DNA of 63,999 bases, filler included, from Jimgerdemannia flammicorona (taxonomy: Eukaryota), in assembly GCA_003990765.1 (NCBI GenBank). It is 3 parts of 3 records of this genome, joined end to end, with 100 filler letters (N's around TTAATTAATTAA, not from the genome) between each part and the next. Parts side by side here need not be neighbours in the genome. Positions count along the whole stretch, not along the records: positions 1 to 21,341 come from RBNJ01001476.1; positions 21,442 to 42,776 come from RBNJ01001477.1; positions 42,877 to 63,999 come from RBNJ01001523.1. One strand, given 5' to 3'. Positions 1 to 63,999 of this stretch are shown here, one piece after another (the stretch's first letter is position 1; every line of letters begins with the position of its first letter). The notes below the pieces were generated by a model. That model had not been told where the DNA came from. It was given only the letters and a program-made list of their open reading frames with translations, and searched no databases. The position numbers were made by a program, and so were the translations under genes.

Positions 1-3000
1 AAAAAAAAATCTACTGGAACTTACTATTCTTCTTGTTGAGTTCATAGATTGAGATTGCAATGTTAGAGAATCCTTTGATAAATCTGTAGTAGTATGAGGT
101 GAGTCCCATAAAGGCTTGGGCTTCAGTGATAGTTGTGGGCCTTGGGTATACTGCTATGGCTTGAATCTTAAGAGGGTCTATGTATGTTCCATCTCAGTAA
201 ATGATATGGCTAAGATAGAAGATCTCGAATTCTACAAACTTATACTTCTTGGGCTTGATGTAAAGAGCATACTTCCTTAGCTTCTCTCTTATCTGCTGGA
301 TGTACTGCAGATGTTCTTCAGCTGTCTTGCTCTGGATAATCACATCATCCATATAAACTATCATTCATCTTTCCATATAGTAGCAAAAGATTTTGTTCAT
401 TATTCACTGAAATCTTGCTGATATATTGTACATTTTATATAATATTTACAGGTAGACATAGGTCTGTCTGGAGTGATGAAGGCTGACTTCTCACTTGCTG
501 CTTCTGTGAGATCAATTTGATAGAATCCTGAATATAAGCCGAGATACAATAGTACTGTGCTTCATCTCATAAAATTATAAGAATATTGCTAATAAGGGGT
601 AGTGATTGATGATCCTTCTTAGTAATCAGGTTGAGATTCCTATAATCAGTGCAGAGCCTTAGAGCAAATTCTCCTGGTTTGCTTCCTTTCTTCAGAACTA
701 GTACAACTGGTGAAACCCAAGGACTACTGGCTTCTTTGATGATACCAACTTCTTCTATCTACTTGATTTCTTCTCTGAGCTATTCATGGTAGACTGGTAA
801 TATTGGTCTTGCTTTTTGGTAGATTGGTTTGATGTCCCCCATGTCTGCATTATGATAGTAGTATAGAGTCTTTTCTTTGATATCCTTGAAATCTGTTGCT
901 AGAACATTCTCAAATTCATAGAGTATCTTCTTAAGTTCTTTCTGGAGTGGGAATTCATTTTCAATTTTATAGCTATACTTGTTTGTGGTTTCCTTCTTAT
1001 GATCCAGCTTGGTAATATTAGTACTAGAGAATACTCTTCTTTCTGTAAATCCAAATTCTTTCCTATCTTTCTTTATTTCCTCCAACTTCTTGTCTTCTAT
1101 GTCCTTTGGCCATATGACTGAGAAGATTAACATCTGTACCAGTCAGTCCTTCTTCTTAATTGGAAATGAAATTATAAAGTTGTGGTTTCTAGTAATAAGT
1201 AGTATTTATTTAATATATTATGAATCAATGATTCCTCCTTTGATGGTAATCTCACTCTTGGCCAGACTACTTCTTGTCTTGAGGATTCCAATATTGTCTT
1301 TTAGAATGGTCATCTCCAGACCTATTGCAAGTAGGGTAGTTGTCTGGCCCTTAAGTATGGTTTCTTCTACAATAGTGATATCCATTCCTGCTACATTTTC
1401 TGACTCATATAGATTTCCAAATCTTGATCTTGATCTCCTCTTTATCATCACTATCTTTCAGGAGAGCTGGTAATTAGTCATTCTCTTCCTCCTCCTTCTC
1501 TTCTCTTGGTTGTTTCTCCAGGGTATTCTGTCTTTTTTCATAGTAGATCTTCTTGATTCCACTAGTACACTGATAGCAATCATTGACATACTCCATTTAG
1601 TACATCTTAATTCCATGAGGGCAGACTCCTTATAGTGTATATTCTTCTGTAATCTTCTTGCACCAGTCTTCTTCACTGATCCATTCAACTTCTTCTTTTT
1701 CTGAGTAGTCTCCTTATAGGCTTCTTCTTGTTCACTCTCTTCTTCCTCTATTTCAGAGAGTACTACTTTGTTGACATTGATAGGAATTTGTATCTCCTGG
1801 GAATTTAGATTAATTATTGCCTGGGCTTTATGAAGCCATTGGTTGCTGTTCAGAATGTCATAGTTGGTTGTATTGATTACAATGATATCTACTGAGATGA
1901 TTGCTCCTCTAAACTTGATAGAGATAGCTCAGCTCTTTCCAAGAAGTGTGGCTCTTATTCTATCTACTGTGACAAATACCAACTTGGTTGCTTCTTTAAT
2001 CTCCCAACTTCGGCAGTATGCTGCTTTCTTGCTGAGGAGGCATCCTTCTGCTCCAATATCAATGATAGCCTTGAAGATTCTATCTTCAATTTGACAGATT
2101 ATATAGACAGATCTTGCAATTATCTTCACTTTCTTCTTCTGAGCCTTCTTGAACATTGTTAGCCTCAGTTATTATCCAACCTTGCTATTTAGTTGTTTCA
2201 GTCAGTCCAAATCTCATTTGCTGTCTGAATATGGGAATTTCTACCAGCTGGCCAAAGATTCTATTGACCTTTTATTAGCTAAGGTCCTTGAAGATATCAT
2301 ACTTGAGGTCTTGGTTTTGTTAAGGTTCTTTTTCTTTTCTCCTTCACTGGCTGAGACTGAGGTAGTTTCTCTGATAATATCTTGAACTACTTGCTTGAGT
2401 TCCATGTCTTGATCCATTTCTTCAGCTTGGCTTTCTGTTGCAGTTTCCATCTATTTCTCCACTAGGTTCTTCTTGGGTCTCTCTGGTGGTCTCTTGTAGA
2501 GTTTCTTATGAACATCCTTGGTGGTCTGTGCAGGGTAGGTCTTCTATTCTTCTTTACCAGATTCTCCACTCGCTTCAAAATTGAGAGTGTTGGCTTGTTC
2601 TCTGTTCTATATAGCATTACTTAGTTGAGCCTTGTACTTGGTTTCACTCATATATTCATGTAAGTAGTGGTCTTCTTCTCCACAAGTATAGCAGATACCT
2701 CTTCTTGTCTGAGATAATGACAAACTTCCGAACTAGGTAATGAACTCTTTCTCTGATTTCCTTTACCATATCTCCTAAGTGGGTGGTCATTTCAGCAAAC
2801 TTCTTAGCTAGTTCCTCCATAGGGTCACTGTTTCTTTGCTACTCAGTAGCTCTTGGCTGAGGTGTTTTGATTGATCACTGTAGTGGGAATCACACTAGTT
2901 GTCTTGAGTGCTTCAATTCTGATACCAGTGACTCTTTCCATTGTGTGGTCTTGTAAATGTCTGGCTATCCAGTATTGCTAAGCATAGGTGACCTCCTGTA

Positions 3001-3766
3001 CCAGATCCAGGACTACTGGTGATGAGCAGATGGCTCTGGCTATTTTAGGGTAAACTCTCTTTATTAAGGTTGCCTTGACTACTTTGTCTTAGATGGCAGT
3101 ATTATAATCTGTGAGGATTATCTTATATCAAATCTAGTGTAGAATATATTTAGATCCTCATTCATTCCTTGGTATATTATATTGAGCTGATCCTTCAGGG
3201 CTTTCTTGATCTTATCTATATAGTAGGTGGCTTTAAGCCAGATCTTCTGTGCTGTCAGTAGAGCATCATCATCATTTTCCACATGAGTTATAGCTGTGAA
3301 TGCTGCTCTTGCTGGGCCTTAGAGACTAAAGGGCATGAGGGCTACTTGCTGCCTTGCTGTCAGTGTACTTATAGCAGCATATTGCTCAAAATCATCATTG
3401 AAGGTAATGATTGATTCATCTGAAGTATATCTGTGGAATACTGGTGATCTCATATCTATCTTGTCTAGATGTCTTGGTTTGGTTTATATAGTTGTTTAGA
3501 CAGTAGCAGTTATTAATTGTTCAGCTTACAAGTGAGAGATTCATCTTAAATAACCAGTCAATGGGCACTAAGTTATAACATAGTAGATGTATAACTGTGA
3601 AAGTACATTGGATTTCTATATCTTAAAAACTTGATCTTCCTTAACTCTGCAGAGTCCTTAGAATGTAGGGGTGGGTGAGTTCAAAGTATATTTACCTGCA
3701 GGCTTACTAGTTCTCTTGATTTCTCTTTGCTTTGAACTATTTTGATCTGATGTTTATTCACTCTAG
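1..3766 (-). mobile_element. Decayed Ty3/Gypsy retrotransposon A (part of 5' LTR, gag, protease, RT; runs off window start)
   Basis: Minus strand: RT motif VYMDDVI (~339-358), aspartic protease IIDIGAEGCLLS (ORF 1929..2156), zinc knuckle CYTCGEEDHYLHEY (~2652-2693). Many stops and frameshifts. LTR-like sequence resumes at 10206 after element B. Confidence 0.85.
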
Positions 3767-5016
3767 TGTAATATGCCTGGCTCGATGGAGACAATTTACA
3801 AGGTTGGGAGTTGGTGTAGTTTGGCTTGAACTCCCAGTTACTTTGTTAAACAAAATGTTCTCAGATTCCTTGTTAGTGTTTAGTGGTATAATAGTCAATC
3901 TGGATACAATAGTCAATTTTCTTATTGGGATAGTTCTTGGGTATAATAGTGATTTGTGTGTGTTGGTGACAATTCCTTATATAGGACAATCTGACAATTT
4001 AGCAGTTTTCTTCTTGGGTGACGATCTCCAAGAGTATGTAATTTCTGTATGATGACCTTGATATGATGAACTTGGCAGTATTCCTTATATAGATTTGGCA
4101 GATAATTTGGATAACTTGGTTTGGTGTGGATTCTCCTGAATCAGTGGACTTCTCTGGAAATGTCAGGTAACTTGATAACTTGGATAACTCAGTTTGGCAT
4201 AGATTCTTCTGAATTGGCAGATTCTTCTGGGAAATAACCTGGATGGCACAGATAATTCAGATAGCTTGGATTGTGGATTCCTGGCAAGTTACATCAAAAA
4301 CTGGCTTCGTTTGAATGGAGTTATATCAGAGAGAAACTGCCTCTACTGTGAAGTTGTATCAGATAGACTAGCTTGTGGCAAGTTTCCTTAAGGTAGGCTC
4401 ACCGGGAATTGCAGATAACTCGAAAATGGTGAATGATGTGAATTCTTCTGAATTAGCAGGCTTTTTGAATAATAACTCAGATTCTCTTCTTCTTGGCAAA
4501 GTTACATCAAGACTGGCTTCATTTGCATGAACAAGCTTACTGTAAGTTGTATCAACAGACTGGCGTTGTGACAAGGTGGTGGACTTCTTTTTGAAAATAG
4601 CAGCTCCTCCATGAGTGGCAGATTTACTCAAATTCTTCAGACTTTTCTGACAAGCAAACCAAAGCTTCATATCAGAAAGAGGACTGGAGTTAAAATATAT
4701 TCTGAATTTCAGACTGAGGTTTATTCACTCTTGTCTCTGGGGTATTTTATACAGTTGTGGTTGCTACTAGTTACTATGTAGCTAATTATAGATTGCTATC
4801 AATATAAGTATATCTTAATAGTACAGTGTACTGGACTGATATAGTTTAACTGACTTAGTATAGTATACTGGACTGATACAGATAAATATACTATTTCTGA
4901 TATCTCTGACTAATTATGCAGATTGATACAGTAAGGCAGTCTTGGTTGCTTAGAGCACTAGATATAGTATATAGCTAATTTATAATTTCAGCAGCATAAT
5001 TCTGCTACTCATCACA
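3767..5016 (-). repeat. 3' LTR of element B
   Basis: Minus strand TGTGATGAGTAGCAG...ATTACA; aligns by eye to 8945-10205. Preceded by degenerate purine tract TTAGTAGGAGCTGA (5017-5030). TATAAAA and AATAAA motifs at ~4720-4752. Confidence 0.9.
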
Positions 5017-8000
5017 TCAGCTCCTACTAAAGGATGATCTGTCCTTGGACTATCCTTTAGTCATTATCTCAATAAGCATAAGTATCTTCAGCATCAATAC
5101 CTGAACTGTTATCTTCATTTGGATTAGAGTTACTCAATTCTACAGGTTCTTCTTCTTTTTCTGAGAATAGGATTTCAACATAATTGATGATACTCAGATA
5201 GGTGATGAGATTCATTTGTTATATATTACTCAGAGATAACTATACCTATATCAGGTCTGGGGTATTTTGTTTATAGATTATATACAATCTGTCTACAGCA
5301 GTTGTGTTTTTCCAGGTCAGATCAGTGGAGTTCTTAATATAGATTAGGTCTGGGGCTGGAAAGTTCTGCAACTGTTCTCTAATTACATTGTAGACCTGTA
5401 GCTGAAAAACTTACAGTAAATATCTGACCAAGGTGAGGTTCTCCTGATGGGTCTGGATTCATTAGAGGGGGTTTTAATTGGCTTGGTGGAATTGTGCAAG
5501 AGGAACTGGAAGTAATTAGAATGAACTTAGGATAAGAGTCTGGAGACACTGGTCAATTGTCTAGTTTATAGTAAGGGGAGAGATATATCTTGAGACAGTT
5601 GATATACACTGGTGTCCTTAGAGTTCATCTATCTATACTTCTTAAATAGATACTGGGTTCTCTGATATTATATACAAGATAAGGTCCTTCCCATTTAGGT
5701 TTCAGTTTGGTGACAAAGTTTGTTTCGATCATATATCTCCAAACTAGTACTTGATCTCCAATCTTAATCTTCTGATCCTTCTGCTTCTGGTCATAATACT
5801 TCTTTTATCTCTCTTGGGCCTTAATAATCTGAACTTGGGCTTGATTATATAACTGTTCTGCCTTCTTGAGGAGATCTCCAAGGTTCTCATGATAAGTAGT
5901 TCTGGTTTTCTTTGCAAATATCATCTTGAAAGGCTTTTGTTTGATAGAGGCAGTAGGGGTGTTCTGAATTTCCCATAGGATCTCAGGTAAGCAGAGGTCT
6001 GAGTTAGTAGGATTGACTCAGACAAGTTCTTTCTTAATGGTCTGGTTCATTTGTTCTGTCACACCATTCTGAGAGTAGTATGATGTGGTCTGTTTGTAAT
6101 GGATCTTGTGAATTTAGATATAACTTATAATTATATTATTGATGAATTTGGTGCCTTGGTCAGAGATAAGTTCTTCTGGGGGTCTATATCTGGGTATAAG
6201 TCTATGGAGGAGGCCTACAATGGTCAAGGCACTGTGATTTCTATTGGGAAAGATTTAGGCCACTTGGTCAGATGTTCTACAAATATAAGGATATACTTGT
6301 TCCTTCTTGGTATAACTGGTAAAGATCCAATTATGTCTATTCTACACCTTTGGAAGATGTTGTCTGGTGGTATGTTTAGTTATAATGGTATTTGATAATT
6401 CTTCTGCCCTTTGTACTTTTGGCAGATATCACATTTCTTCAGTATGTCTTGGACTTATGTTCTGAGATTTGATCAATAGTGGTATATCATTTGTAGTTTT
6501 TCTTCTATATATATTTATCTGTCCTTGGCAGGCTTTCTGGTATTCTTTTTGGATGAGATCTTCTTGTGCTTTGATGGTCAAAGGAGTTTCCTTTAGAGTG
6601 TAGTTTCTTAGTACACCCTTCTTCTGGTTCATTGGAGTTGGTGGAAAAGTACATCAACATTGTTGTGAGCTTTCTCTGCTTTGAGAATGATGGTGATTTT
6701 ATGATCTTGAAGGATGAGGAACCAGCAGACCAAGATTCCAGTAGGTTGTTTGTAGTTGAATAGCTATTTGAGGGCTATATTGTCAGTTATTAGGGTGAAT
6801 CTTTTTCTGATGAGATAATACCTGAACTGGATAACTGTTCATATGACTGCAAGGAATTCCAATTTAGTGCTACCATAGTTGATCTGCTGCTGATTGGTTG
6901 CTTAGCTTGCATAAGCTATTACATAGTGCTGTTGGTCAGATACTTCTTGGGCTAGAACTACTCAAAGGCCATCTTTGGAGGAATCTGTATATAAGATAAA
7001 TGGCTTCTATAAATTGGACCAAATAAGGATTAGTGCTGTAGTTATGTAGCGCTTAAGTTCATTGAATGTTTTTTCTGTAATTCTATCTATTTATAGGATA
7101 CTCCTTTCTTGAGAAGGATTCAGATTAGGGCAGTAATTTGAGCAAAGTCCTTGATAAATCTTCTGTAGTAGATTACTAGCATCAGAAATGATAGTATTTT
7201 CTTTAGAGTCTTGGGTACTGGCCAATTGTTAATCTTCTCAGTTTTTTTTAAATCTATATGGATTTCTTTTTTCAAAACTTTGAATCTAAGAAATTCAAGT
7301 TTCTGTTTTCCAAAGTGGCATTTCTTGGTATTGAGTCTTAGGTAGTTCTTATAAGTGAGCTTGAAGAATTCTTCTAGGTAATTCCTCAAAATTTGCTGAA
7401 TAGATATTAGAATCATCCATGTATACAATCAGACAGTAGTAGATTAATAGGCTATAGACTGAGTTCATCATTCTCTGGAAGGTGGGAGGTTCATTGCAAA
7501 GTCTATAGGATATTTGGAGGTGTTTCAACAGTTTTCCTAGGGTAAGAAAGACTGTTTTTGGAATGACCTTAGGGTCTATAGAGATCTTGTGGAATCCGGC
7601 AAAAAGGTCCATAATGCTAAAGTATCTGATATCTTGTAACTGTCTAAGAGATCATCAAATCTGGGCAAAGGATGGATATTCTTTTCTGTAAATAAATTGA
7701 GTTTCCTGTTATCTATACAGAGTCTCCATCCTCCTTTCTTTGGTACAATAAGTATAGGGCTGGCCCAAGGGCTAGCAGATGGTCTGATGACTCTATTGTC
7801 TAAGAGTCTTAAATATGTTCCTTTTTGAAGGTCTTTAGGTAATGGGGTATTCTTTAGGATTTCTGCCAGATGGGTGTTACATTTGCTATATTTATACTAT
7901 AGTGATATGATGGGTTGTATGGCAGATTTCCATGATCAGTAGTAAAGCTATCTTGATATTTTTTGAGGAGTTCTACTAGCTGTTACTATTGCTGAGGTAT

Positions 8001-8925
8001 CAATTCTTCTCCAATATTGGTGGAAGGCTTCACTGTTTCCTAGGTTGCAGAGAGGTCTTTCCTTTCTTCTGAGACCTTTTTCCATTTCCTGATAAGTTTA
8101 GCTCATAGACTTCTCCATGGGTTTGATTGAGAAAAAGCACCAAATATCCAATGATGGTTTCTTTTAGAAAGATGATACTTTCCCAGCTCTGGTTGATTGC
8201 TCAGGAGTGTACTGGATTCATCTTGTCAGAGAATATGTGTCCTTCAATATTCAGATTTGAGATATCTTTATTAGGTTCAAAGAAAAGATTCCTGGAATCA
8301 GGTGGGGCAAAGATTTCGAAGGTATTTTGCTCTCTAGGCTCCAGGATGAGATTCTTATACAGTTTGACTAGTTAGTAATATAACTAATTCTGATTCTAAT
8401 TCTGATTCTGATGCTGATTCTGATTCACCTTCTGAGTTACTAGAGTTTGAGATACTTGGATATCCTGAGGATAGTGTTGGAGATCTTGGATGAGGTGGAA
8501 TAGGTCTGGATATCTTTGAAAGAGCTACTCCTTAGTTTTCTTGTTCTGTGACAGCTGGTGGTAGAGGTTCAATGGACGAAATTGGTAGAACCTCTGCGGG
8601 AAATCAGGCTTGTTCAATGAGGTCTTCAAGTTGTTGTACAAGCTCACCAAAGACTCTGGCAGGGCTGTCTGTATAATCTGGTTGATCTGGTTGATTTAGT
8701 AATAAGTATGTTGACAATGACTAGAGATTTTGTGCTATACTGGCTTTCTGTTGAGATCTTTCTGAAACTAGGTAGTTGGCATGTCTTGAAGTGATTACTT
8801 CTCTTCCTTTCCGAATGCTGGTAATGACTGGTTCTCCTGTAGTAGTAGAGATTGGTGTTTTATCAAATATATCCAGTATGACTGGGGGTTCTTGTAAGCT
8901 GAAAAGTTACATCAATTTGAAATCT

Positions 8926-8942
8926 TCCCAGTTGAGCTCCCA
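8926..8942 (-). promoter_or_regulatory. Primer-binding site, tRNA-Pro type (element B)
   Basis: TGGGAGCTCAACTGGGA 2 nt after the LTR end. Undoing transitions with the element C copy gives TGGGGGCTCGACCGGGA, close to the tRNA-Pro PBS TGGGGGCTCGTCCGGGAT. Confidence 0.7.
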
Positions 8943-8944
8943 AA

Positions 8945-10205
8945 TGTAATGTGCCTGGCTCAATGGAGGCAAATTACATGATTGGGGGTTGGTGTAGTCT
9001 GGCTTGAGCCCCAGTTACTTTGTTAAAAGCAACAAAATGTTCTAAGATTCCTTGTTGGTGTTTAGTGGTATATTAGTCAATCTGGATACAATAGTCAATT
9101 TCCTTATTGGGATGATTCTTAGGTGTAGTGGCGATTTGTGTGTGTTGGCAGTGATTCCTTATGTGGGACAATCTGACAATTTAGCAGTTTTCTTCTTGGG
9201 TGACGATCTCCAAAAGTATGCGATTTCTGCATGACGATCTTGGCATGATGAACTTGGCAGTATTCCTTATACGGATTTGGCTGATAATTCAGTTGACTTG
9301 GTTTGGCACGGATTCTCCTGAATTGGCAGGCTTCTCTGGAAATGTCAGATAACTTGATAACTCAGATAACTTGGTTTGGAGTGGATTCTTCTAAATCGGC
9401 GGATGCTTCTGAAAAGTAACCCAGATGGCGCGGATAATTCGGGTAGCTCAGATTGCCGATTCCTGACAAGTTACGTCAAAAGTTACATCAGAGGGACTGG
9501 CTCTACTGTGAAGTTGTATCAGATAGACTGGCTTGTGGCAAGTTTCCTTAAGGCAGGCTCTCTGGGAATGGTGGATAACTCGAAAACAGCGGATGACGCG
9601 AATTCTCCTGAATTAGCGGGCTTCTTGAATAAACTCAGATTCTCTTCTTCTTGGCAAAGTTATGTCAAGACCGGCTTCATTTGTGTGAATAGGTTCACTG
9701 CAAAGTTGCATCAACAGACTGGCTTTGTGACAAGGTGGAGGACTTCTTGAAAATGGCAGCTCTTCCTTGAGCAGTAGATTTACTCAAATTCTTCAGGCTT
9801 ATCTGGCAAGCAAACCAAAGCTTTGTATTGGAAGGGGACCAGAGTTGAAATGTGTTCTGAATTTCGGACTGAGGTTTATTTACTCTTGTCTCTGAATATT
9901 TTATACAGTTGTAGTTGCTACTGGTTACTACATAGCTAATTATAGATAACTATCTATGACAAGTAGACCTAGATAGTACAGTGTACTGGACTGGTACAGT
10001 GTACTGGCTCAGGACAGTGTACTGGACCTGTACAGTATACTGGCTTGATACAGCATACTGGATCAGTATAGGTAAACATACTGTTCTGATATCTCTGGCT
10101 AATTATACAGATTGGTGCAGTAAAGCAGTCTTGGTTGCTTAGTATACTAGATATGGTATGTGGTTAATTTTTGATTTCAGTAGTATAATTCTGCTACTTG
10201 TTACA
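8945..10205 (-). repeat. 5' LTR of element B
   Basis: Minus strand TGTAACAAGTAGCAG...ATTACA, followed by a PBS. Contains a tandem array of ~19-bp CAGTGTACTGG units at ~9975-10075. Confidence 0.9.
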
Positions 10206-10299
10206 CTAGATACTGGAGATATTTATACAAGTTTGGTAGCTATCAGGTGGCTAAGTTATGACTATGTTTCCTGTGAGTCACTTTTTACAAATATTAATC

Positions 10300-11544
10300 C
10301 TTGATATCTATTAAATCTTAATAATCATCAGAATCTTAACATCTGTGAAATCTTGATATTTGTGAATACTTTAACATTTGTTATAACTTCAATATTTGTG
10401 AAATAATTACTATTTGTAAGACTATACCATATTTGGAAATTGGATTCAGGTACTATAATCAAAAGTCTATTCTTCTGATTTATGTTCCTAATTTGGATCA
10501 ATTATCACAATATGTATAATATCCTTGTTGTTTATAATTATAATACTAGACTTATATATATATTTTCTTAGAGTAGATAGCTTCAATTTTTACAAAGTAA
10601 GTAATTATGACTTTTTCATAGTAGGTAACTTCTACTTTCTGATAGATATAGTTTTAATTATTATATTTGATAAGTTTTTCAATTTGTTGAACCAATTAAT
10701 CTAATTTTGAGATAAGGTTTTGAATTTTATTTCTGACTCTCTACTATTCTTTTGTGAGTTCTTTTTCTTTAGAGGATTTCTTATATAGTTTAGACCAGAA
10801 GATATTTCTTATCTTCTTTTCTATTATTGTCATTTTAGATGACTTTATATTTAATATTAAATTATTCTTACTAGATATTAAGACCTCTTAATATCTAGGA
10901 TATAGATATATTAGATAATATTATGAGAGATCTCATTTATAAAGATTATAGAGTCAATAATATCTTGGTTGATAGTATTGAGTTTAGTGATATATATTTT
11001 CAAATAGATTTTGATAAAAAATACTCATAAAGATTCTCTAAGATTTATCTTTATATCTATAACTAATTCTTGAGCCTTATGATAGATTTCTGTTTCTATA
11101 TATCTTTTAATTATTTAATATGTGATAATTTCATATTATTATATATAAAAGACTACAATATTAATAATAACTTCTAGATCAATACTCTGGTAATTTACTA
11201 TTCATATAAAGATCCCTTTGATAGGCTCTCTTAGCTGAGCTTTAATAAAAGGAGTTTGTCTTTAAAATATTATATCTTTGAAGATTATGATTCCTTAAAT
11301 AGTATTTAAAAATTCTCTTAGATATTTGTCTGAGTATTCTACAAATATAGACAGTAATACTATTATCTCATTATAACTACTTTCTGATTCTGCTTCTTCT
11401 TTTATACATATATATATTGATCTTATTATTAGATACTGTTAAATAGATAATTAAAAATAGTACTAGTCTATAAGTTATTAATATAGCTCTTAGTATTCTT
11501 GAAGATCTAATTCTTGATCTTTTAGAAGTAGCTGGTCTATATAG
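10300..11544 (-). mobile_element. Heavily AT-mutated Gypsy gag remnant (element D)
   Basis: Minus strand FIKAQLREPIKGIF (~11210-11250) matches element C gag IYKTQLREPARGIF. Decayed zinc knuckle *YYNYKQQGYYTYCDN at ~10501-10548. Confidence 0.7.
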
Positions 11545-19371: not shown

Positions 19372-19375
<4 letters not shown>

Positions 19376-21558: not shown

Positions 21559-21599
<41 letters not shown>

Positions 21600-53379: not shown

Positions 53380-53514
53380 TTCAGGATACTGGCATTATTT
53401 AGTGTCACATCAAAATGCCAGTGCTGGAACAATTTCGCATTACCTCAGAATACCAGTGCTGGCATTATCCAATGTTACATGAGAATACCAGTGCTGGCAT
53501 TATCCAGTGTAACA
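53380..53514. repeat. 35-bp-period tandem repeat with palindromic core AT(G/A)CCAGTGCTGGCAT
   Basis: Cores start at 53415, 53450 and 53485, with a partial unit near 53386. Confidence 0.8.
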
Positions 53515-53520
53515 AAGAAC

Positions 53521-54294
53521 TTAAAGCAGAAAGTTCAGGATCATGGGGGCTTTATCATCATCATCATCATCATCACTGAAGGAGATGAGATCCGCGAATT
53601 CATCATGCAGGTCATGCATTTCGTGTACTTCACATGCTTCGGGTATGTCGCGCGGGATGACGTCATCGATGACGTCATCACGTTCGGCTGTGGCGGGGAA
53701 ATCGGGAACAAGATCTGGAGCTCTCCAGTCTATGAGGTTCTCTTCCACAAAATAGGGAACAAATGTGGGGTCTTGGGGAGGTCTAACCTGGATGCTTGGG
53801 CCTTGGAATACTGAGATTAATCCTTGCAGGAATTGATCTGGGTTGTCCTGGAGGATAGGGTGCCAGAAGTCTTCTACTTCTTCACTGTTGAGGGTGATAG
53901 TGGACTGGGCTTCTGTAGCCACCCTGGCTTCTAGTGCATTGATACAGCAGGATGACAGGTCTCTGAAATCTGAGACTCTAACATACTCCAAGTTGGGGAT
54001 CGACCATGGTGCATGCCTGAAGATCTGATGGATCTTCTTAGCTGTCCTTGTTTTGCATATGTCCATGGGAGTGGCATCTTGTAGCTCTTGGGTGCTGGCC
54101 TGTGGGAACTCCTGGCAGAGGAGGTTTCTTATTTCATACTCCTGCCATATTTGGAGGCATTCAGTAGCAATGGTGATCCTTGTTTCCATTTCACAATGGT
54201 AGAGAATGAAGTGATAAGGGTCTGCAGTACTCAGGTTGATACTAGGAGTCCTTCTTGAGTGGGTCCCCATGGCTCTTCTGATGTCTTGGAACAT
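53521..54294 (-). CDS. Unknown ORF (257 aa, acidic C-terminus) inside the repeat nest; probably element-borne
   Basis: Longest complex-sequence ORF in the right block; the frame continues upstream to a TAA at ~54340 that could be a mutated CAA. Confidence 0.4.
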   Translation of the reverse strand: MFQDIRRAMGTHSRRTPSINLSTADPYHFILYHCEMETRITIATECLQIWQEYEIRNLLCQEFPQASTQELQDATPMDICKTRTAKKIHQIFRHAPWSIPNLEYVRVSDFRDLSSCCINALEARVATEAQSTITLNSEEVEDFWHPILQDNPDQFLQGLISVFQGPSIQVRPPQDPTFVPYFVEENLIDWRAPDLVPDFPATAERDDVIDDVIPRDIPEACEVHEMHDLHDEFADLISFSDDDDDDDKAPMILNFLL

Positions 54295-56500
54295 CCTTTC
54301 TTCGACTGAGATACCTTGGTGGTTCCTTGACCTTGAGATTTAGTGGGCAGCAGGCATTTCATTTGTGGTAAGTCTTTGAGCTATTTTGGGATTGGTGGTT
54401 CTTGTTGGTTGCTGCTACTGCAGTTCCTTGATTCTTCTTTTATATTCTTCAGAATGCTTGTACTATAGTCACAATGACTCATAGTTGGTCATCATTGCTC
54501 ATCTCATATGCCATATAATCTTCTTATGCTCCAATCTGGTGGCTTGTAAGGAAAAGCTGTCTCCTGTGCTGATGTCATCATTCTGGGGTCACCGTTACAA
54601 TGTTCAAGAATTATAGTTATTTGTTTAGTTTGTTGTAGTTCTTTTATTTTGACATATCTAAGTGTTTGGTATATATATTCAGTTCTAATTGGTAAGATTC
54701 TATTTATGTAAATCTTGTATGTATTCTGTGACTTTGAGTTGACTTAGCTTTGTACTCCATGACTTCAGTTTGACTCAACTTTGTGATCTTGCATGTAATT
54801 TCTGGATTTGTTCTGAGAGTGATATGTGATTTTGGTAGCTTAGAGGTTGTGTACTTATATCTAAGCTTATTGGTCTCTTTCTGATCTCATTGATCTTATT
54901 GGTCTTTTCTGTGACCTTGTTACTATCCATATTACTAATCTTGTTTGCCATATTTTTGCTAGTATTATTGATCTTATTTGCTAGTCTTATATATACTAGC
55001 TTTATTGACCTTATCAGCTGGTATCCTTGTTGTGATAATTGTCTCAACCACTTGGAAGAACTTAAGTAATTATCTTAACACCAAAGAGGATTTCACTTAT
55101 CACCTGAGAGAACTTATAATTACCTCAAATACCTGAGTGAGTACTTTTATTATAATCATCTTCTGCCACTAGAGAAGACTTCATTATTATCATTAGTGGA
55201 CTTCTTTTACAATGAGACTGTATTTTCCATTATCAGAAAGCTATTATAAAGATACCTATCTTGATGCTCTGGCTCACACTCATGTTCATCAGTATAGCAT
55301 ATAAACTAGAGAAGTTCTAGTCACTAACTAGAGCTTACTACTAACTGAGCTATATAGCTACTCAGTTACTAACAGGGCTCATAATCTATTGTAATGAACA
55401 GAAGAAGTAATTTATTCAAAAAATGACTAAGTTATGTATTTTATACATTACTGATGAATGATATAAAACTGATGAAATAGTATATAGTATAAAGTCACAT
55501 ATCTATATATTAAGTTGCTATCCCAACAGAGCTTATTGATATATAATAACAAGAAAATGTTTTTTTTTTTTATCAGAAAGTATCTCTATTTTTTAAGAAT
55601 AAATAATTTCTTTTTATAAGTAATATATCTGATTTCTGCCTCTTTTTACTTTTGAGAAAAGTAGACTATTGGTTGTATTTCTTAAGAGAGGACTACTCTA
55701 ATTACTATATCTGAAACATCAAGTAACTTTAAAGAACTCTTTTAGATCATAGATTATCAATACTGATATATTAATAAGAAGTCTTTTTAGATAATTAAAG
55801 GCTTATATCTGGATAGAAGTCTAATGTTTTTTAACATTTATAGATTTTTGAGTAAGTACTATTAAAGAAGTTACTACTCTAGAGAATTCTTTTAAAAAAG
55901 TTAAATAATTCTAGAAATTCTTGTATATAATTCTTTAAGGTTTCTAGTTAGAACTAATCTTCTATAGCTTTAATCAGTTTGAGTGAGTGAAGTTTTAACT
56001 ATTTCTTTCCCAATAATATACTACTTCTTCTTATAAAAAGTGACATTTTCAAACTTTAGATATAATTGATTTTTTCTCAGTATAGTGAAGACTTCTTTCA
56101 GATATTGAAAGTATTCCTTTTGAATTATACTATAGATGAGAATATCATCATTATAAACTAGTATACACTTGTCTAATAGAGGCTTAAAAATATCATTCAT
56201 AAAGGTCTAAAATATTACTAAAGTATTTATTAATCTAAAGGATATAACTTTGAATTAATAATATCTATATCTTATTTTAAAGACTGTTTTTTTTTATGTC
56301 TCTTTTATCTATTTCTATCTGTCAAAATTCTTCTTTAAGATTACCCAAGATCATAACTTTAGCTTTGTAAAGCTGGGTGAGTAATTTCTTTATACTAGAT
56401 AGAGAATATTGGTTTTATATAGTATTCTTATTAAGTAAGCAGTAGTTTACACATATTCTCAATATTCTATTCTTCTTTTTTATAAATGGAATAGATGCTC

Positions 56501-56716
56501 CTGGGTGGTGGGTGGGTTGGGGTCTCTAGGGTGGGTGATATTACTGTCTGGTGGCAGAGATCTGTAAACTGAGTGATGGGCAGGTAGAGATGGTATTTGA
56601 CAAAGTGGTCTTTCATCAAGAGGGGGGGGTCCCCCTAGAGGGATTGGATAGGGGTGGGCACTGTGTATTATATAGAGGATAGATGGGTATATTAATAGAG
56701 GAAGAAGTCCAAGGAC

Positions 56717-56764
<48 letters not shown>
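56501..56764 (+). mobile_element. 5'-truncated LINE insertion with poly(A) and 17-bp TSD
   Basis: Perfect TSD AAATGGAATAGATGCTC at 56484-56500 and 56765-56781; poly(A) of ~45 nt. Confidence 0.92.
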
Positions 56765-56770
<6 letters not shown>

Positions 56771-57240
56771 AATAGATGCTCTATAAGAAGATATACTTGG
56801 TTTAATATATTCTTTATTAAGAAGTATCTTTAGAGTCTCTCTTAAGACTTCTAGTTCTGGCTGAGATATAGAATAAATAGACTTATAAGAAAGTAATAAT
56901 TCTGAAATTATATCAATCTTATGATTGACTTTTTTTTTAGATAGAGGTTTTATTAGTTTTTAAAATATATCAGAGAATTCTTCTAAGAGGCTGAATTATT
57001 TATAAGATATGAATAGCTTTCTTCTCTTTTAGAGCTATTTATATCAAACAGAGATAACAATATTTTATTCTCTTGACTTCTTTATAAAATCATATAGCTG
57101 AGATTATTTCTACTTATATTTACTTTGGATTTAGAGTAAGCTTTTGACCTATATTTTTATAGAGTAATTTCATTATTACTCTAATTAATATTAGAGTTGT
57201 ACTTTCTGAACTATAGGATTTTAAGTATAATATCATAATA

Positions 57241-58242
57241 ATCTTTCTCTGGTAATATTCAGATTATACAAACTTTTAACAACACTCAAGATATTATTTT
57301 TGAAGAAAAAATACTAGTAATATAGTAACCAATGAACATTCTGAGATATGTACTGGGCAGGCCAGCCATAGTGTATTCAACTAGCAGCATATAGAGAGAA
57401 GTTATGGCTTGGGGGGAAGTATATAGAGCTTGCTGGCTGGGAGATATGGAAGGGGAAGAGGTAGTACTGAAAGACAGGAGACTAAAAGGACAAGCTTCAC
57501 AGACAAGGTGAAGAGGAGTCATCTGACAACTGAACAGAAGGGCTGGCTGAAGAAGGACAAGGAGATAGTGAGGACTGCAGAGGCCAGTAGAGTGGCCCAT
57601 AGTAGTAAGAGCAGCAGGGCTGGGGGAGTACTAAATTCAGAACTAGTAATGTAGATATCAGGGTATAGCTAGTGGACAAGAAGAATATAGGGAAGGCAAG
57701 GGACTAGTCAGTGATCCTCAAATAGAGATCTGTGGAGTATAAGATCTTGAGAGTAAAAGGGATGCTAGAGGAAGAAAAGGACTTACTAGAGATATTAGAG
57801 AATCTGGCTAAAGCTATAGAGAGGAGAAGATTGGCATATGTAGAAGGAGTTTGAGACCAGGATGATTGTGGAGATTATAAATGGCAAAAAGGTGTAACTG
57901 GACCAGACAGCCTAGGAGAGAGTATAGAGAAGGTATATTCAGAAGAATCTATTGACTAAGTTGGAAGAGGAGGCAGCTAGGGGGACCACTACTGATGAAA
58001 CTGGATCAAGGGTGAGTGCTTAGGCAGGAGAGAAGGGAGTAGTGCCAGAGTAGACCCTAGGTGAGGGGGTAGGTGTAGGGCTGAGTATTGTAGTGGAGGA
58101 TATAGAGATGGTAGAGGGGGAGAGCCCTCAGTATGAGATACCAGGTAGGACTAAAGGAGATGATAAATTATAGGATATGCTGGAGGAATATTGGGATGAG
58201 TTGGTAAGGAGGAATGCAGAGGGTGAGCAGGTAGCAATCAAT
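57241..58242 (+). mobile_element. LINE 5' fragment (5' UTR, internally deleted ORF1)
   Basis: Starts ATCTTTCTCTGGTAATATTCAG; RTSFTDKV; distal part similar to 19372-19840. Confidence 0.8.
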
Positions 58243-61200
58243 ATCTTTTTCCAGTAACATTCAGATTACACAACCTTTTGGCAACACTCTTGACATAGTT
58301 TCTGGGAAAAAGCTACTAGTATTAGGGTAACCAATAAGTATTCCAAGTGCATACTGAGCAGGATAGCCCAGGGGCATTCAACTGGCAGTATGTGGAGAGG
58401 GGCTCTGGCTTAGGGGGAAGCATGAGAGGCCTGCTGGTAGGAGGATGTAGTAGGGGAGAGGGCAGCACTGGAGGTCAGGAAACAGGGAGGGCAAGCTTTG
58501 CAGATAAGGTAAAGGGGGATCAGCAGGGAGCTGGGCTGGAGGGCTGACTTAGGAGGGGCAAGGAGATAGTAAAGACTGCAGAGAAGTAGCCTCAAGAGAG
58601 AGTCTCTCTGGGAGGTAAGAGTAGTAGAGCTGGTGGTGTAGGGGCTGAGGAAGTGATTGCTGATGGAAGTATGACAGGTGATCAAGAAAAAATCTAGATA
58701 GGACTGCTGATGGTGGACTGAGCAGTGGGAAAGATATGAGACTAGTGATCTGGCAGATAGTGTAACAGAACTGGTGGTGGTACCATTACTCAAAAAGTTG
58801 ATCTCAGAGTTTGCAGTCACTTTGTGCTTCTGGGGCTTGACAGTAACAGTGAAAATGGTCCTGGGGCTGATTGCTAAGCAGGTGGCTAGAGCAGTATCCA
58901 TGAAGTTCTTGAAGAGACTAGAAGGAGTAGAGGTTGGCTTTGAGAAAGCTGGACCATTGGAGGAGGCTCTGAAGGCAGGGTTGACAGTTGGAGAGATGTA
59001 CATTCCAATAGTACACTGCTTGAGATGGGACCCCAGGGTGGTGCAACTGCTGGTGAAGGGAGTGCCCATGGTGACTGCTGAGGAGACAAGGAGAAGAGTT
59101 GTAGAAGTCATGGCTGAGTATGGTGAGGTGGTCAATGTTGGGTTCCAGATCTAGGAGGGGACCTCATTCAGGATTGGAGATATTGATGTTCAAATTCAGT
59201 TAGCAGAAAAGGAAGCTACTGGGAAGGCTAGAGACTGGCCTTCAGTGATGGTCTGGGGGGCTTTCTTGTACAAGGTGATGAGGGTGAAGGAGAGTGAGGA
59301 GGAGGAAGAGGATCTGCTGGAGACACTAGAAGAGCTGAGCAGTGCTGTAGAGTAGAGGGCTAAGGCTTGGAAGGTGTATGTTGAGTTGACACATTTGGAA
59401 GTAGTGGATGGAAAGAGAATTCAGGTTGATAAGAAGTGGTGGGAAAGATCCCAAGAATGCAAGAGACAGAGAGAGCTGTTGGCAAAACTGGATAGCAGAG
59501 CAAAGAAGGATGCTGGTGGTATTAAAATCATGGGGGGAGCCAAGGAGAGCATCTGGGTCAGCAAGGATAGAGAGAATATAAGGAAGGGGTCAGGAGGGGA
59601 AGAGGAGGTGAAGGGAAATAACCCTTATACAGATGGTACCTTTGTGGTCTGGAAGCTATTCCTGATCCCTATACCACTTATTAGATGAGGTCCAGTTTCA
59701 AGAGGCAGAGTGGTAGAGAATGTGCCCATGCAGGGAGTCCAGAGAGTATACTTTGGAGTTCTTGAGGTGGCAAAGAGGAGGCAGGTGGTGGTAGTGGGTG
59801 AGGATGAACTGGTGGATGTCCAGGAGGAGGAGTGGGATGAGATTGTAAGTATAGTGGCTAATATCTCAATGTTGAATAGAGGGTGGCCAGCGACTCCTGA
59901 GAGGAAGGAGGTGGGAAATCTGTTGTAGATATACAGGATGATGAACAACTTTACAGTGGAGGAGTTGGGGGAGATAGACCTGCAAGTGATGAGTGATGAG
60001 TATTGGGCACATATCCTGTATGGTGAGAGTGTGGTAGAGGCACTGAAGGTAGAGATTCTTGCTGTTTTCCTGAAGAAGAAAGGGTATGAGATTGATAAGG
60101 AGAGAGAGGCTGGGCTGGTAGTTGCTGCTGGTGAGAGGGCTGCTTACTATTGGGCAGAGTGGTGTGGGTTACAGCTCTGGCAGGAGGTCTGCCTAGAATA
60201 TCAGGAGGAATTTGAGATGGGGAGCTCACTGAACTTCTGGTTAGACTGGAGGCTATAAGGACTGAAGAGGAGGCAGAAGCTACAGAATATAATCTAGACC
60301 TGGCTCAGAAGGAGATAAACATGGAGCAGTAGAAGATATGCTTATTATTATATATTATTTCTTATAAACAGTATAACCAACATTTTTTCCTTAAATGTGA
60401 ATGGACTCTGGAGTTCTTTTTATTAATAGAACATTTTTGCTTAGCTGAAGAGATTAGAGGCCAATCTCTTTCTTTTGCAGGATATCAGATGTGAGGATGA
60501 TTTAGATAAACTAGAATAGATAAAGAAATGGAGAGAGGAGACAGTTTGAAAGAGCAAGGTTGGAATTCTGGTCAGGAAGAGCAGAGGGGAGATATGGAAT
60601 GTGCAGAACTGGAGAGACAGACTGGTCTGGGGTGAGTGGATTTACACTGGTTGGGAACCAGTTACAGTTAGATCCTGCTACTGTCCTACAGTGAGGAGTG
60701 AGTATATAGAGTGGGTGAAGGGTCTCCAGGAGGAAGAGACTCTGGCAGGGGCTGGAATGGATGTACTTAGCAGAGACTTTAATATGGTCAGAGATGTACT
60801 GCTGGATAGAACTGATAGAGGGTGAGGGACAGAGGGAAGGAGTGGAGGTTTGGAGGTGTGGGAGAAAGTAGAGAGACTGAGTGCTTTGGTGGATGCTGGC
60901 AGGGAGCTATGGGGTGACAGAAGGGTGTATATATATTGGACAAGTGGCCTGGGGACAAGGATTGACTGGATTTTAACAGTGGACTGCTGGGGTCTAGATG
61001 TTTAGTGGTCTCTGGAGGCAGAATGGTGTCTGTGGTCTGATCATTAGAGACTGCTAGGATGGGGACATTTTGGGGGAAGTGGGGATGGACTGGGACATTG
61101 GTGCCTCAACTCCTCTCTGGTAGACAATAAGGTGCTATGGGACAAGTGGGCTGAGGATATTCAGCAGAGGGTGGAGAGGTGGATACAGAAAGATGCCTCA

Positions 61201-63999
61201 ATTAGCATTAAGTAGATGAGGCTAAAGGAAGCTACTCAGGTTTATTGGAGGGAGGCAGGTGCAGTAGCTAAGAGACAGAGGAGAAGGAAGAGGGTGTGGG
61301 CCTCTGCTAGATTGGTGAGGCTGTTGGAAGATTGGGCAGGTTTGGTGGCCCTGGAGGGGGTGGAGGATTAGAGATTGCTATAGGTGAAAAAGGAGATTAT
61401 GAAGTTGCAACAGATCTTGCAGGAGGAGGAGGAAGCACAGATGCAGAGTATGGTAGTATATCTCTGTTGGTAGGGACTGGAGGAAGGAGAAAGGCTCTCT
61501 AAGTTTCTCATGAGGGTCCTTTGGGTAAGGAGGGTTCAGCAGAGGTGGGAGGGGGTTCTTGATACTGAGAGGACTTGGGTGCATAGTATATAAGACATTC
61601 TCAGGATACTGAAGGAGCAGTGGAGTGGCTTGTGTAGTGAAGAGGAGGATGGAGCAGAAGATACCTCTATTGATATTGCCTTGGAGGATTGGCACCTGCC
61701 ACAGATAGAAGAGCTGGGCAATCTGGTGATGCTGGTGCAGGAGGAGAAGATTCACCAGATTCTTGCTACAACTATACTGGGTATAGTACCAGATAAAGAT
61801 GGCCTGCCCTGAGCTTTCTGGAAGAAGATGGTAGATGTCTCCAGAGTGCTGGGAGAGATGAGGACACTCTGTAACTTGGTACTATAGTCTGAGAGATGGG
61901 TGGGGAGCAGAATCTGGGGCTGTTGATACTGTTGTATAAAAACAAAGGTAGGAGAGAGGACTGAAGGAACTGGAGACTGATCATGCTACTGGACATGGAC
62001 AGGAAGTTGATTACTAAGGTGGTAGTAGTGAGGCTGCAGAAAGTGGCCTAGCAGGTCTTGGGAGTAGAGCAGCAGAAATTTGTTGGGGGCTGACTCATTC
62101 GGGATAGCACAGCTTAGGTATATAGTGTTATCAAAGGGGCATGGGCCTGTGGATTAGATGGGCACCTGGTCTTCTTGGATCAGGAGAAGGCATATGACTG
62201 TATTCAGAGAGTCTGGTTGACAAAGGTACTAGACAGGATTAGAGTCCCTCATCAGTTCTAAGTAGTAATGGTCAGCCTACTAGAAGGGAGCAGGGCTGTA
62301 CTCATGTATAATGGGTATCAAGGAGTGGCTTTTCCTCTGAGTAGGGGTGTTCTCCAGGGGGACCCACTGTCTTCTATTTTGTATGCACTCTCTTTGGAGT
62401 CCCTAATGGATAGGATTTGATAGAAGATAGGAGAGCTTTCCATTTATGGCATTGAGTGGAAAGTTGGTGCTTTTGTAGATAATATAGTGGTTGGCCTGGA
62501 TTTGATTATCAATGTTGAGGAACTCAAGGAGACTGTGAAGTAGTATGAGGCATACTCTGGGACTAAACTCAATTGGCACAAGTGTGAAACAATGGTGCTG
62601 GGTAATGGTTTGGTAGGGGGAGAGGTCATTGGAACAATTGTCCCTGCTAGAGAGACAGTGCAGTACTTGGGCATCTATCTGTTAGTATATGGATTCATTC
62701 TTCTAAAATTCTAGTGAGAGCAGTGGGTGGTTATCTGGAGGGAGGCTCTGCAGAGCTGGAGAGGCTGCCACTTGTCTCTGGCAGAGTGTGTTTCCATCTT
62801 GAATACTTACTGGCTACCAAAGTTGTGGTATCTGATATATCATCTGGACTTCCCAGCCTGAGTGGTGAAGAGACTGCTGAAACCAGCCAAGGGGTGGATC
62901 TGGGCAGAGAGGAGGAGTCAGATTAGCTGGGAAATTTTGTCCTTACCAGTGACTAGAGAGAGACTTGGGCTGGTTGACTTCCTGAAGAGATTATACTATC
63001 TGAGAGCATAGTGGCTGAAGAGAGCTGTTGAGCTGGGGGGAGATAGTTGGGTCTCTCTATTGAGAAGGTCTGGGAGATGAGGTCCTTACTGAGAGGATCT
63101 ACAGGAGATCTTCTGTCCTTGGTTGGACTTCAGAACATTAGGCACATGCATTTTAAGGGCTTCTGGTGGGGAGTCGCTGATGGGGCACACCACATTAGCA
63201 TTTGGTGGCAAGGAGATGAGGGAGAAAGGCCTTGGGGTCCAGCAATGTAGAGATGGGACTGAGTGTTACCGGGGGGTATCCCCCTTAGTGACTTTGATAT
63301 TAGTGATAGGGTGGAATGTCAGAGAGGGTTGGGGCAGGATCTGTGGCCCAGCAGATGGCAGTTGATAAGTATTAGTGAAGAGTGGGACTGGAACAGGATC
63401 TGGAACTGGAGTGCTGAGGTTTGATGGTGGCTGCCACTGAAGTATTGGTACATGTTGAGGAGGAATGTCATACTCAATTTTCACTCTGGCCACCTGGTGG
63501 AAGGGGGAACCTTTGACTGTGAGGAGTGCTATAATGTTGGACAGAAAGGGGGTTTTGTACAGACACCTAAACATTGGCTAGGGGAGTATGAGGTGCTTAG
63601 TGATTTTTAGATAGTAGTTAAGAAGAGGTTGAGTATTATGTAGAGGGGGGATGATGTGAGGGATCAGTGAGAGGATCTGCAGAATAGATTGGTAGGAGGG
63701 GTTGAGAGGGAATGACTTACTTTAGAGTGGGTGCTGGCTGTATGGGTAGGGTTGACAGGACACTGGCTATATGTGTTTGAGGATGAGAGACATCTGAGAT
63801 TAGGAGTACAACTGTTGTGATAGAAAGAACTGATGGAGGATACTCTGATGGGTTGGTAGCATGGGTGGAAAATATAGAGTGGTCAGCAATATTGCTTGGT
63901 GGAGAAGATATATAGTCAGAGTGGGGGGAGGGTTAAGGTCATGGGAGACAGGGTGGTCTTTATATGTGATAAGGTAGGGTGGGGCCCCCCGATGGGGAT
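58243..63999 (+). mobile_element. Near-full-length decayed L1/Tx1-like LINE (ORF1 ~58330-60330; ORF2 ~60365-63990)
   Basis: 5' ATCTTTTTCCAGTAACATTCAG; ORF1 with RRM-like LLVKGVP...EYGEVV; ORF2 FSLNVNGL, RDFN, RIDW, SDH (APE), NWRLIMLLD, LDQEKAYD, QGDPLS, FVDN (RT), YLGI; many TGG->TAG/TGA stops. Confidence 0.9.

What the first reader, a model, noticed from the sequence alone, without database searches (positions are those of the whole stretch)
1..63999. RIP-like, repeat-restricted hypermutation (CpG then CpA/TpG->TpA) in a probably non-Dikarya fungus
Seen: every old repeat class (Gypsy, Copia, LINE, Tc1) is almost CpG-free while the gene island is CpG-rich. The twin LTRs of element B differ mostly by transitions, including CG versus TA (TGCGATT/TGTAATT; TATACGGAT/TATATAGAT) and TGTGA versus TGTAA, which CpG deamination alone cannot give. 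Zinc knuckles show Cys->Tyr and His->Tyr, and LINE Trp codons become TAG. Known: RIP (CpA->TpA, RID-dependent) is established in filamentous ascomycetes. Inference: either a RIP-like defence or heavy CG plus non-CG methylation with deamination acts on repeats in this lineage.
Basis: partly seen in the sequence, partly recalled or inferred. Interest (0 to 1): 0.7.

Follow-up and report, generated by a model that had tools for sequence, protein, structure and literature searches.

The report
Transposon-targeted C-to-T decay, not classical RIP
In the early-diverging mycorrhizal fungus Jimgerdemannia flammicorona, transposons in this window have lost almost all CG sites and many cytosines before A or C, while neighbouring genes and duplicated host genes are untouched, which looks like the mutational scar of DNA methylation more than classical repeat-induced point mutation.

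Summary
The hypermutation is real, but the RIP label fits poorly. The organism is Jimgerdemannia flammicorona (Endogonales); the window is three separate contigs joined by spacers.

Repeat contigs have CpG o/e 0.04-0.09, against 1.05 in the gene contig. With ancestral-CpG columns removed, C>T rates are CpA 0.25/CpC 0.23/CpT 0.06 (Gypsy), 0.19/0.17/0.04 (LINE) and 0.16/0.11/0.05 (DNA transposon). The order is CG >> CA ≥ CC >> CT, not CpA-specific.

Against RIP: kinase paralogues 82-96% identical keep their CpGs and show a flat spectrum; mutations show no strand coordination in 76 copies; 5' LTRs tend to be spared. Three DIM-2-type methyltransferase genes were found. No RID-like gene was seen, but no RID query was available.

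Best reading (0.62): DIM-2-type methylation of transposon chromatin followed by deamination, matching the Dim2 site order in Zymoseptoria. No methylome was seen. A published survey scored this species "no_rip". This scan noted the same pattern before on other pieces of this genome.

The parts
1..21341 (.). Contig 1 (G000:C1476): nested retroelement relics, CpG o/e 0.09
10..8382 (-). Tandem Gypsy unit (element A, shared LTR, element B internal part), present as two further ~92% copies on C295 and C1455; used for the polarised three-copy spectrum
   Evidence: RT and protease matches
3767..5009 (-). LTR between elements A and B (3' LTR of B); 6 CG left; the more mutated of the pair
8945..10198 (-). 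5' LTR of element B; keeps a CpG block (20 CG)
10200..12650 (-). Heavily decayed AT-rich relic with a knuckle-like motif carrying Cys>Tyr and His>Tyr
   Evidence: motif pattern recalled
12656..15900 (+). Related LTR-element fragment (LTR part, gag, weak aspartyl protease match)
15900..21341 (+). LINE relics; the last ~550 bases keep some CpG; boundaries approximate
21342..21441 (.). Artificial N-TTAATTAATTAA-N spacer between contigs
21442..22600 (.). CpG-free AT-rich edge of the gene contig (0 CG in 1159 bases, GC 0.19): the two compartments meet on one contig
22601..42776 (.). Unmutated gene compartment (G000:C1477): protein kinase, WD40 gene, SND1, short-chain dehydrogenase and others; CpG o/e 1.05
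42777..42876 (.). Artificial N-TTAATTAATTAA-N spacer between contigs
43247..48530 (-). DNA transposon with ~465-base terminal inverted repeats and a decayed DDE-like transposase near 44200-45950
   Evidence: no Pfam hit
47700..57240 (-). Decayed Gypsy-type relics (integrase zinc finger, SH3, RT); small CpG-keeping block near 53300-53700; boundaries approximate
57241..63999 (+). LINE relic; 60300-63900 used to collect 30 genomic copies

Best explanation
Transposon chromatin, not sequence duplication as such, is the target. DIM-2-type cytosine methyltransferases methylate transposon DNA, most at CG, less at CA and CC, and hardly at CT. The methylcytosines then deaminate to T gradually and independently on both strands over many divisions. 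Each copy first loses its CGs and then drifts to AT-richness through CA>TA and CC>TC. Genes, introns, host gene paralogues and some element promoters stay unmutated. SHOWN: the spectrum, its confinement to transposons, the lack of strand coordination, the order of decay and the presence of three DIM-2-type genes. INFERRED: that methylation exists in these contexts, that these enzymes deposit it, that H3K9me/RNAi chromatin targets it, and whether deamination is spontaneous or enzyme-assisted.
For: Three-copy polarised spectrum: C>T at CpA 250/2253, CpC 93/1095, CpT 59/3178; T>C 131/11523. Only 27 of 1701 CG/CA/TG/TA columns show any sign of an ancestral CG, against 283 with a private TA. The same order holds in Gypsy (27 test copies), LINE (27) and DNA transposon (22) after removing CpG-flagged columns. 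Both strands mutate equally at CpA (100/910 and 162/1497). Same-strand neighbours match chance: 2273 vs 2301 expected, 2029 vs 1988, 487 vs 465. Across 30 Gypsy copies, CG density falls as TA density rises (rho -0.82). The kinase paralogue control is flat: CA 47/1143, CC 22/638, CG 23/542, CT 31/841, p=0.86. Three genes (C8187, C11271, C3657) group with DIM-2-type proteins apart from DNMT1/CMT at 100/100. In Zymoseptoria tritici, Dim2-dependent methylation in TEs runs CG > CA > CC >> CT (PMC8016269 passages). DIM-2-like homologues are reported in Endogonales (PMC9963178 passage).
Against: No methylome was seen. In Z. tritici, more than 98% of Dim2-dependent mutations are at CA although CG is more methylated, so mutation order need not follow methylation order. 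A review table gives DIM-2 a CpT preference (PMC13297926). Loss of 20-45% of CA/CC cytosines in old copies is large for passive deamination of weakly methylated sites (inference). The kinase control is coding, under selection, biased to survivors, and some pairs may be alleles. Many RIP rounds could blur strand coordination. The tree has no RID row, and two of the three Jimgerdemannia branches are long.
Confidence: 0.62

Rival explanations
1. RID-independent, DIM-2-mediated premeiotic RIP: homology pairing in the sexual stage nucleates heterochromatin and DIM-2-type enzymes drive C>T, with a lineage-specific CA+CC context.
For: DIM-2 can mediate RIP in Neurospora without RID (bioRxiv 10.1101/115501, abstract and passages). 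Three DIM-2-type genes are present. The mutation load is high and confined to repeats.
Against: Kinase paralogues, up to 94.7% identical over 2247 bases, keep 99 CG each. No strand coordination. The 5' LTR tends to be spared while its 3' twin is not. DIM-2 RIP in Neurospora strongly prefers CpA.
Confidence: 0.17
2. Classical RID/Masc1-dependent RIP operating outside Dikarya.
For: A large C>T excess including CpA>TpA, confined to repeats. One paper lists RID in arbuscular mycorrhizal fungi (PMC8298701 passage). My searches cannot exclude RID.
Against: CpA is not dominant over CpC and CG goes first. The composite RIP index is positive in 9 of 42 repeat windows. All three DNMT1-superfamily genes found carry DIM-2-like N-terminal regions, whereas RID lacks BAH (PMC7862722). 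RID-1 is reported only in Pezizomycotina (PMC9963178). A kingdom-wide screen scored the species no_rip.
Confidence: 0.05
3. A methylation-independent process of closed chromatin (a deaminase, or weak repair of deaminated C in heterochromatin) makes the CA/CC excess, while CG loss alone comes from CG methylation.
For: CA and CC rates are nearly equal and show only modest further context effects. Z. tritici data show that mutation and methylation contexts can be uncoupled.
Against: The sparing of CT matches the published Dim2 methylation pattern. No deaminase was sought or found.
Confidence: 0.12
4. Plain CpG deamination, retroelement-specific editing or sample damage explains everything.
For: CpG loss is the strongest single signal.
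Against: CC>TC cannot derive from CpG, and CA>TA persists after CpG columns are removed. Both strands and a DNA transposon are hit. Genes and introns are untouched.
Confidence: 0.02

Closest known systems
Dim2-dependent TE methylation and mitotic C>T mutation in Zymoseptoria tritici (PMC8016269)
   Same: Confined to TEs; DIM-2-type enzyme present; site order CG > CA > CC >> CT; TEs gain TA.
   Different: There more than 98% of mutations are at CA and CG is hardly mutated. Here CG is erased first and CC mutates about as fast as CA. Here the organism is a Mucoromycota fungus with three DIM-2-type genes, and nothing is shown experimentally.
RID-dependent RIP of Neurospora crassa and other Pezizomycotina
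   Same: Massive C:G>T:A confined to repeats, inactivating transposon ORFs; includes CpA>TpA.
   Different: No CpA dominance, host paralogues spared, no strand coordination, no RID-like gene seen, and a graded series of copies.
DIM-2/DIM-5/HP1 branch of RIP in Neurospora (bioRxiv 10.1101/115501)
   Same: RID-independent C>T tied to a DIM-2 enzyme and heterochromatin.
   Different: That branch is homology-triggered, premeiotic, strongly CpA-biased and spreads into single-copy flanks. Here the context is CA+CC after CG, and homology alone did not mark the kinase paralogues.
TE methylation in Phycomyces blakesleeanus and Rhizophagus irregularis (PMC11258239, PMC8647823)
   Same: Related fungi with TE-focused 5mC; Phycomyces TEs carry CG and CHH methylation. 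Two Jimgerdemannia genes group with the Phycomyces enzyme (99/98).
   Different: The passages read report methylation, not a context-resolved substitution spectrum; RIP signatures are stated as not detected in Mucoromycotina.
RIP-index signal in Entomophthorales (PMC10515909)
   Same: An earlier claim of RIP-like change outside Dikarya.
   Different: It rests on dinucleotide indices, without an alignment-based context or a paralogue control in the passages read; different phylum.

Membership tests
Classical RIP (RID/Masc1) | C:G>T:A excess confined to repeated DNA | tested here: met
   C>T 404 of 660 private substitutions in the three-copy set; genes and introns CpG o/e 1.05-1.09
Classical RIP (RID/Masc1) | CpA>TpA dominant over other CpN contexts | tested here: not met
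   CA/CC ratio 1.06, 1.15 and 1.44, all CIs including 1; CG differences highest wherever CG survives
Classical RIP (RID/Masc1) | Triggered by homology whatever the sequence, so host gene duplicates are hit | tested here: not met
   23 kinase pairs at 82-96% identity over 600 bases or more among 30 loci fetched; CpG kept; flat spectrum in two triplets. Caveats: coding selection, survivor bias, possible alleles
Classical RIP (RID/Masc1) | Strand-coordinated, clustered mutations per round (feature recalled) | tested here: not met
   Same-strand neighbours at chance level in 3 + 76 copies; variance close to the mean; many rounds could hide it
Classical RIP (RID/Masc1) | RID/Masc1 orthologue in the genome | tested here: inconclusive
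   PF00145 and two protein searches found three DIM-2-type genes and two DNMT2-like pieces. No RID query was available, and the Pfam search itself missed C11271
Classical RIP (RID/Masc1) | Acts in the premeiotic stage of the sexual cycle | not testable with these tools
   Needs crosses or parent-offspring sequencing
DIM-2-dependent methylation-linked TE mutation (Zymoseptoria type) | DIM-2-type methyltransferase with intact catalytic motifs | tested here: met
   C8187 and C3657 proteins keep motif I and PC, with best PDB match 9bap/9baq, recalled as Neurospora DIM-2; C11271 placed in the tree from pieces only
DIM-2-dependent methylation-linked TE mutation (Zymoseptoria type) | CT spared, CA and CC targeted | tested here: met
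DIM-2-dependent methylation-linked TE mutation (Zymoseptoria type) | Mutations almost only at CA | tested here: not met
   CC about equal to CA, and CG erased
DIM-2-dependent methylation-linked TE mutation (Zymoseptoria type) | 5mC on TEs in CG, CA and CC contexts that depends on the enzyme | not testable with these tools
   The run search returned three runs, all RNA or guessed RNA, none a methylome
DNMT5-maintained CG methylation | DNMT5 gene in the genome | not tested
   No query sequence available; PMC8298701 states second-hand that sister clades of the AM fungi lost it

The most novel reading that the evidence does not exclude
Endogonales run an active, RID-independent transposon mutator: an expanded trio of DIM-2-type enzymes, with no canonical DNMT1, that both methylates and promotes deamination at CG, CA and CC but not CT. 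It reads chromatin state, so it spares gene duplicates and active element promoters. This would be a living form of the step from methylation silencing to RIP, older than Dikarya and missed by RIP indices.
Probability: 0.2. Interest if true: 0.8.

Novelty: new variant of a known kind. Interest (0 to 1): 0.5.

Why it matters
Surveys treat repeat-directed hypermutation as almost wholly an ascomycete trait, and one scored this species 'no_rip'. Alignments show a strong transposon-only mutational sink with an unusual context (CG, then CA and CC, sparing CT). It inactivates transposons without blocking host gene-family expansion, which classical RIP does block. It gives a precise prediction for a methylome and a way to ask whether DIM-2-linked mutagenesis came before RID-based RIP. 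It also means that divergence-based dating of transposons in this genome is inflated unless CA and CC sites are corrected as well as CG.

Tried and rejected
RIP indices: the composite index was positive in only 9 of 42 repeat windows, so it is uninformative here.

Contamination as the source of the two compartments: rejected, because genes and CpG-free repeats abut on single contigs (C2181, C58, C295, the gene contig's edge and several kinase loci).

CG double hits as the source of TA: rejected. CHG or CCG specificity: not seen; CAG was 62/743 and CAT 85/502.

Public RNA contigs as a single-copy polymorphism control: only 40 of 214 differences were shown, many from one divergent contig, so they were not used. 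The introns they defined were used.

DNA search for copies of the window's kinase region: only two short matches, so paralogues were found by protein search.

Copia motifs: none real. Representative-library search with a C3657 exon: 2 hits, one a false plant MADS protein. The first tree lost 6 of 17 rows (five to a too-strict motif match, one the false hit) and was rebuilt.

RID and DNMT5 could not be sought with their own sequences, so their absence is left open.

Literature: eight searches found no paper describing this spectrum in Endogonales. The original Endogonaceae genome paper, Bewick 2019 and Venice 2020 were not read.
Full report
SOURCE AND LAYOUT. An SND1 exon from the gene block matches two Jimgerdemannia flammicorona proteins at 100% and an Endogone protein at 71%. 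The organism is therefore in Endogonales (Mucoromycota), not Dikarya. The window is three contigs joined by N-TTAATTAATTAA-N spacers: 1-21341 (C1476), 21442-42776 (C1477) and 42877-63999 (C1523). The 'gene island' is not a physical neighbour of the repeat blocks. The two compartments do meet on single contigs: the first 1159 bases of the gene contig have 0 CG, and C2181, C58, C295 and several kinase loci switch within a few hundred bases.

OBSERVATION. CpG o/e is 0.09 and 0.04 in the repeat contigs, 1.05 in the gene region and 1.09 in 15 RNA-defined introns. The LTR pair differs by 153 transitions and 23 transversions, and both quoted CG/TA examples are real. The TGTGA/TGTAA example is not an aligned difference, Copia was not found, and the Tc1 label has no Pfam support. 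The composite RIP index is positive in 9 of 42 repeat windows.

SPECTRUM. The stretch 10-8382 has two further copies at about 92%. Polarising by two against one gives C>T 404, T>C 131 and transversions 125. C>T is 250/2253 at CpA, 93/1095 at CpC, 59/3178 at CpT and 2/14 at CpG. Only 27 of 1701 relevant columns show a trace of an ancestral CG, while 283 show a private TA, so CA>TA is a primary event. I then took the best-scoring copies of three families: 30 Gypsy, 30 LINE and 25 DNA-transposon loci. Each search scored only 40 of 2405, 14104 and 180 candidates, so the sets lean towards copies like the window's. Each remaining copy was compared with three GC-rich copies where these agreed, with any column showing CG, or both TG and CA, removed. 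CpA/CpC/CpT rates were 0.246/0.232/0.063 (Gypsy), 0.189/0.165/0.036 (LINE) and 0.155/0.110/0.047 (DNA transposon). Column-bootstrap CIs for CA/CT were 3.1-5.1, 4.3-6.6 and 2.4-4.8; for CA/CC they were 0.92-1.23, 0.97-1.34 and 0.96-2.36. Where CG survives it differs most: 14/22, 8/10, 16/20, 7/7 and 9/37 in the five pairs that had CG sites. The order is CG >> CA ≥ CC >> CT. Gypsy copies form a gradient from GC 0.43 with 18 CG to GC 0.32 with 0-1 CG, and CG density falls as TA rises (rho -0.82).

TESTS THAT SEPARATE RIP FROM METHYLATION DECAY. (1) Host duplicates. A kinase family gave 133 matches, of which 30 loci were fetched. Among them, 23 pairs are 82-96% identical over 600 bases or more; one pair is 94.7% over 2247 bases with 99 CG in each copy. 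Two triplets give C>T of 47/1143 (CA), 22/638 (CC), 23/542 (CG) and 31/841 (CT), homogeneity p=0.86. These are coding, selected, surviving genes and some pairs may be alleles, so the test weakens RIP but does not exclude it. (2) Strand coordination. There was none in the three-copy set or in 76 further copies; repeated rounds could blur it. (3) LTR asymmetry. Of 30 LTR loci, 10 were classed as 5' and 9 as 3'; 3 shared and 8 unclassified were left out. At least 15 CG remain in 8 of 10 5' LTRs and 2 of 9 3' LTRs (Fisher p=0.023; 0.057 without one near-twin; rank test p=0.031; threshold chosen after seeing the data). Twins that start identical but decay unequally fit promoter protection from methylation better than pairing-triggered mutation. 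This result is suggestive only.

MACHINERY. PF00145 gave 4 matches among 8 candidates: C8187, C3657 and two pieces that look like DNMT2 by recalled motifs. A protein search added C11271. The C8187 and C3657 proteins match PDB 9bap/9baq best (recalled as Neurospora DIM-2). The margin over DNMT1 is wide for C8187 (136 vs 92 bits) and narrow for C3657 (123 vs 116). In a 17-row tree of the catalytic part, all three fall with Phycomyces, Gigaspora, Basidiobolus and Trichoderma proteins, apart from DNMT1 and plant CMT (100/100). C8187 and C3657 are long branches and the tree has no RID row. C8187 and C11271 carry DUF7893 and weak RFD matches. C3657 has only PF00145 by Pfam, but aligns over about 830 residues with the Phycomyces and Gigaspora proteins, and its nearest Atlas clusters carry DUF7893 and BAH. 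A DNMT1 query found nothing new. RID and DNMT5 remain open: no query was available, the searches miss intron-split genes, and the survey's assembly of this species is 70% BUSCO-complete.

LITERATURE (what was seen). PMC8016269 (abstract, passages): Dim2 methylation in TEs runs CG > CA > CC >> CT, but mitotic mutations are more than 98% at CA. PMC9963178 (passages): RID-1 only in Pezizomycotina, DIM-2-like proteins in Endogonales. PMC8298701 (one passage): AM fungi said to have RID, sister clades not. PMC7862722 (passages): RID lacks BAH. PMC12543289 (passages, section 9, supplements 1-13 searched; 14-19 and three oversize tables not seen): J. flammicorona scored no_rip. That method contrasts repeats with all non-coding DNA, which I infer is blunt where 73% of the assembly is repeat. 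The unseen orthogroup table may state Rid1 and Dnmt5 presence. PMC8647823 (passages): RIP signatures not detected in Mucoromycotina. PMC10515909 (passages): RIP index signal in Entomophthorales. PMC11258239 (passages): CG and CHH methylation on Phycomyces TEs. PMC13297926 (passages): lists a CpT preference for DIM-2, which goes against my reading. bioRxiv 10.1101/115501 (abstract, passages): DIM-2-mediated RIP, CpA-biased. PMC2621366 and PMC7928374 (passages) added only background. Eight searches found no description of this spectrum in Endogonales; papers outside the open library were not searchable.

EARLIER SCAN NOTES. Eight notes on other pieces of this genome reach much the same reading, so the finding is a repeat within the scan. 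My spectrum, the paralogue control, the three-copy strand test and the Zymoseptoria comparison were made before I saw them. One note gave the lead to the Neurospora DIM-2 preprint.

VERDICT. The effect is real, strong and specific to transposons. It works like methylation-linked TE decay of the Dim2 type (0.62). It fails three tested features of classical RIP and should not be filed as RIP. It is a new variant of a known kind, and a methylome would settle most of what is open.

Noticed in passing
window 21342-21441 and 42777-42876: Artificial N-TTAATTAATTAA-N spacers join unrelated contigs; adjacency across them has no biological meaning.
   Followed up: yes
window 8945-10198; loci L004, L009, L014, L019, L022, L025, L029: 5' LTRs of this Gypsy family often keep a 600-800-base CpG block while the adjacent gag DNA and most 3' LTRs have almost none, which suggests promoter protection.
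   Followed up: partly
window 10-8382; G000:C295 and C1455: Two Gypsy elements share one LTR, and the whole tandem unit is copied at least three times at about 92%. C295 and C1455 share about 15 kb or more, so large nested blocks were duplicated as DNA.
   Followed up: partly
G000:C8187, C11271, C3657 (L035, L147, L038): Three DIM-2-type methyltransferase paralogues and no canonical DNMT1 detected; C3657 is divergent around the catalytic PC motif.
   Followed up: partly
window 23115-24403; loci L112-L140: Member of a large expanded kinase family (133 matches), many with tandem ~160-base repeats upstream of the kinase exon; recent paralogues up to 95% identical.
   Followed up: partly
window 43700-44170 and 46400-47650: Long arrays of an ~18-base GA-rich unit in inverted orientation inside the two ends of the TIR transposon.
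   Followed up: no
window 26300-27760 (+): Very highly covered spliced transcript(s) in run X1 (depth over 10,000, against under 5 in X2), over ORFs for small Pro/Thr/Cys-rich proteins with a signal-peptide-like start.
   Followed up: no
window 39278-42703 (+): 1141-aa low-complexity ORF with no Pfam match, covered by RNA contigs in X1 and X2.
   Followed up: no
window 53300-54600 (-): A 272-aa open frame of unknown family with a CpG-keeping block; an 88% copy lies in L012 and shows the same CA/CC-biased spectrum.
   Followed up: partly
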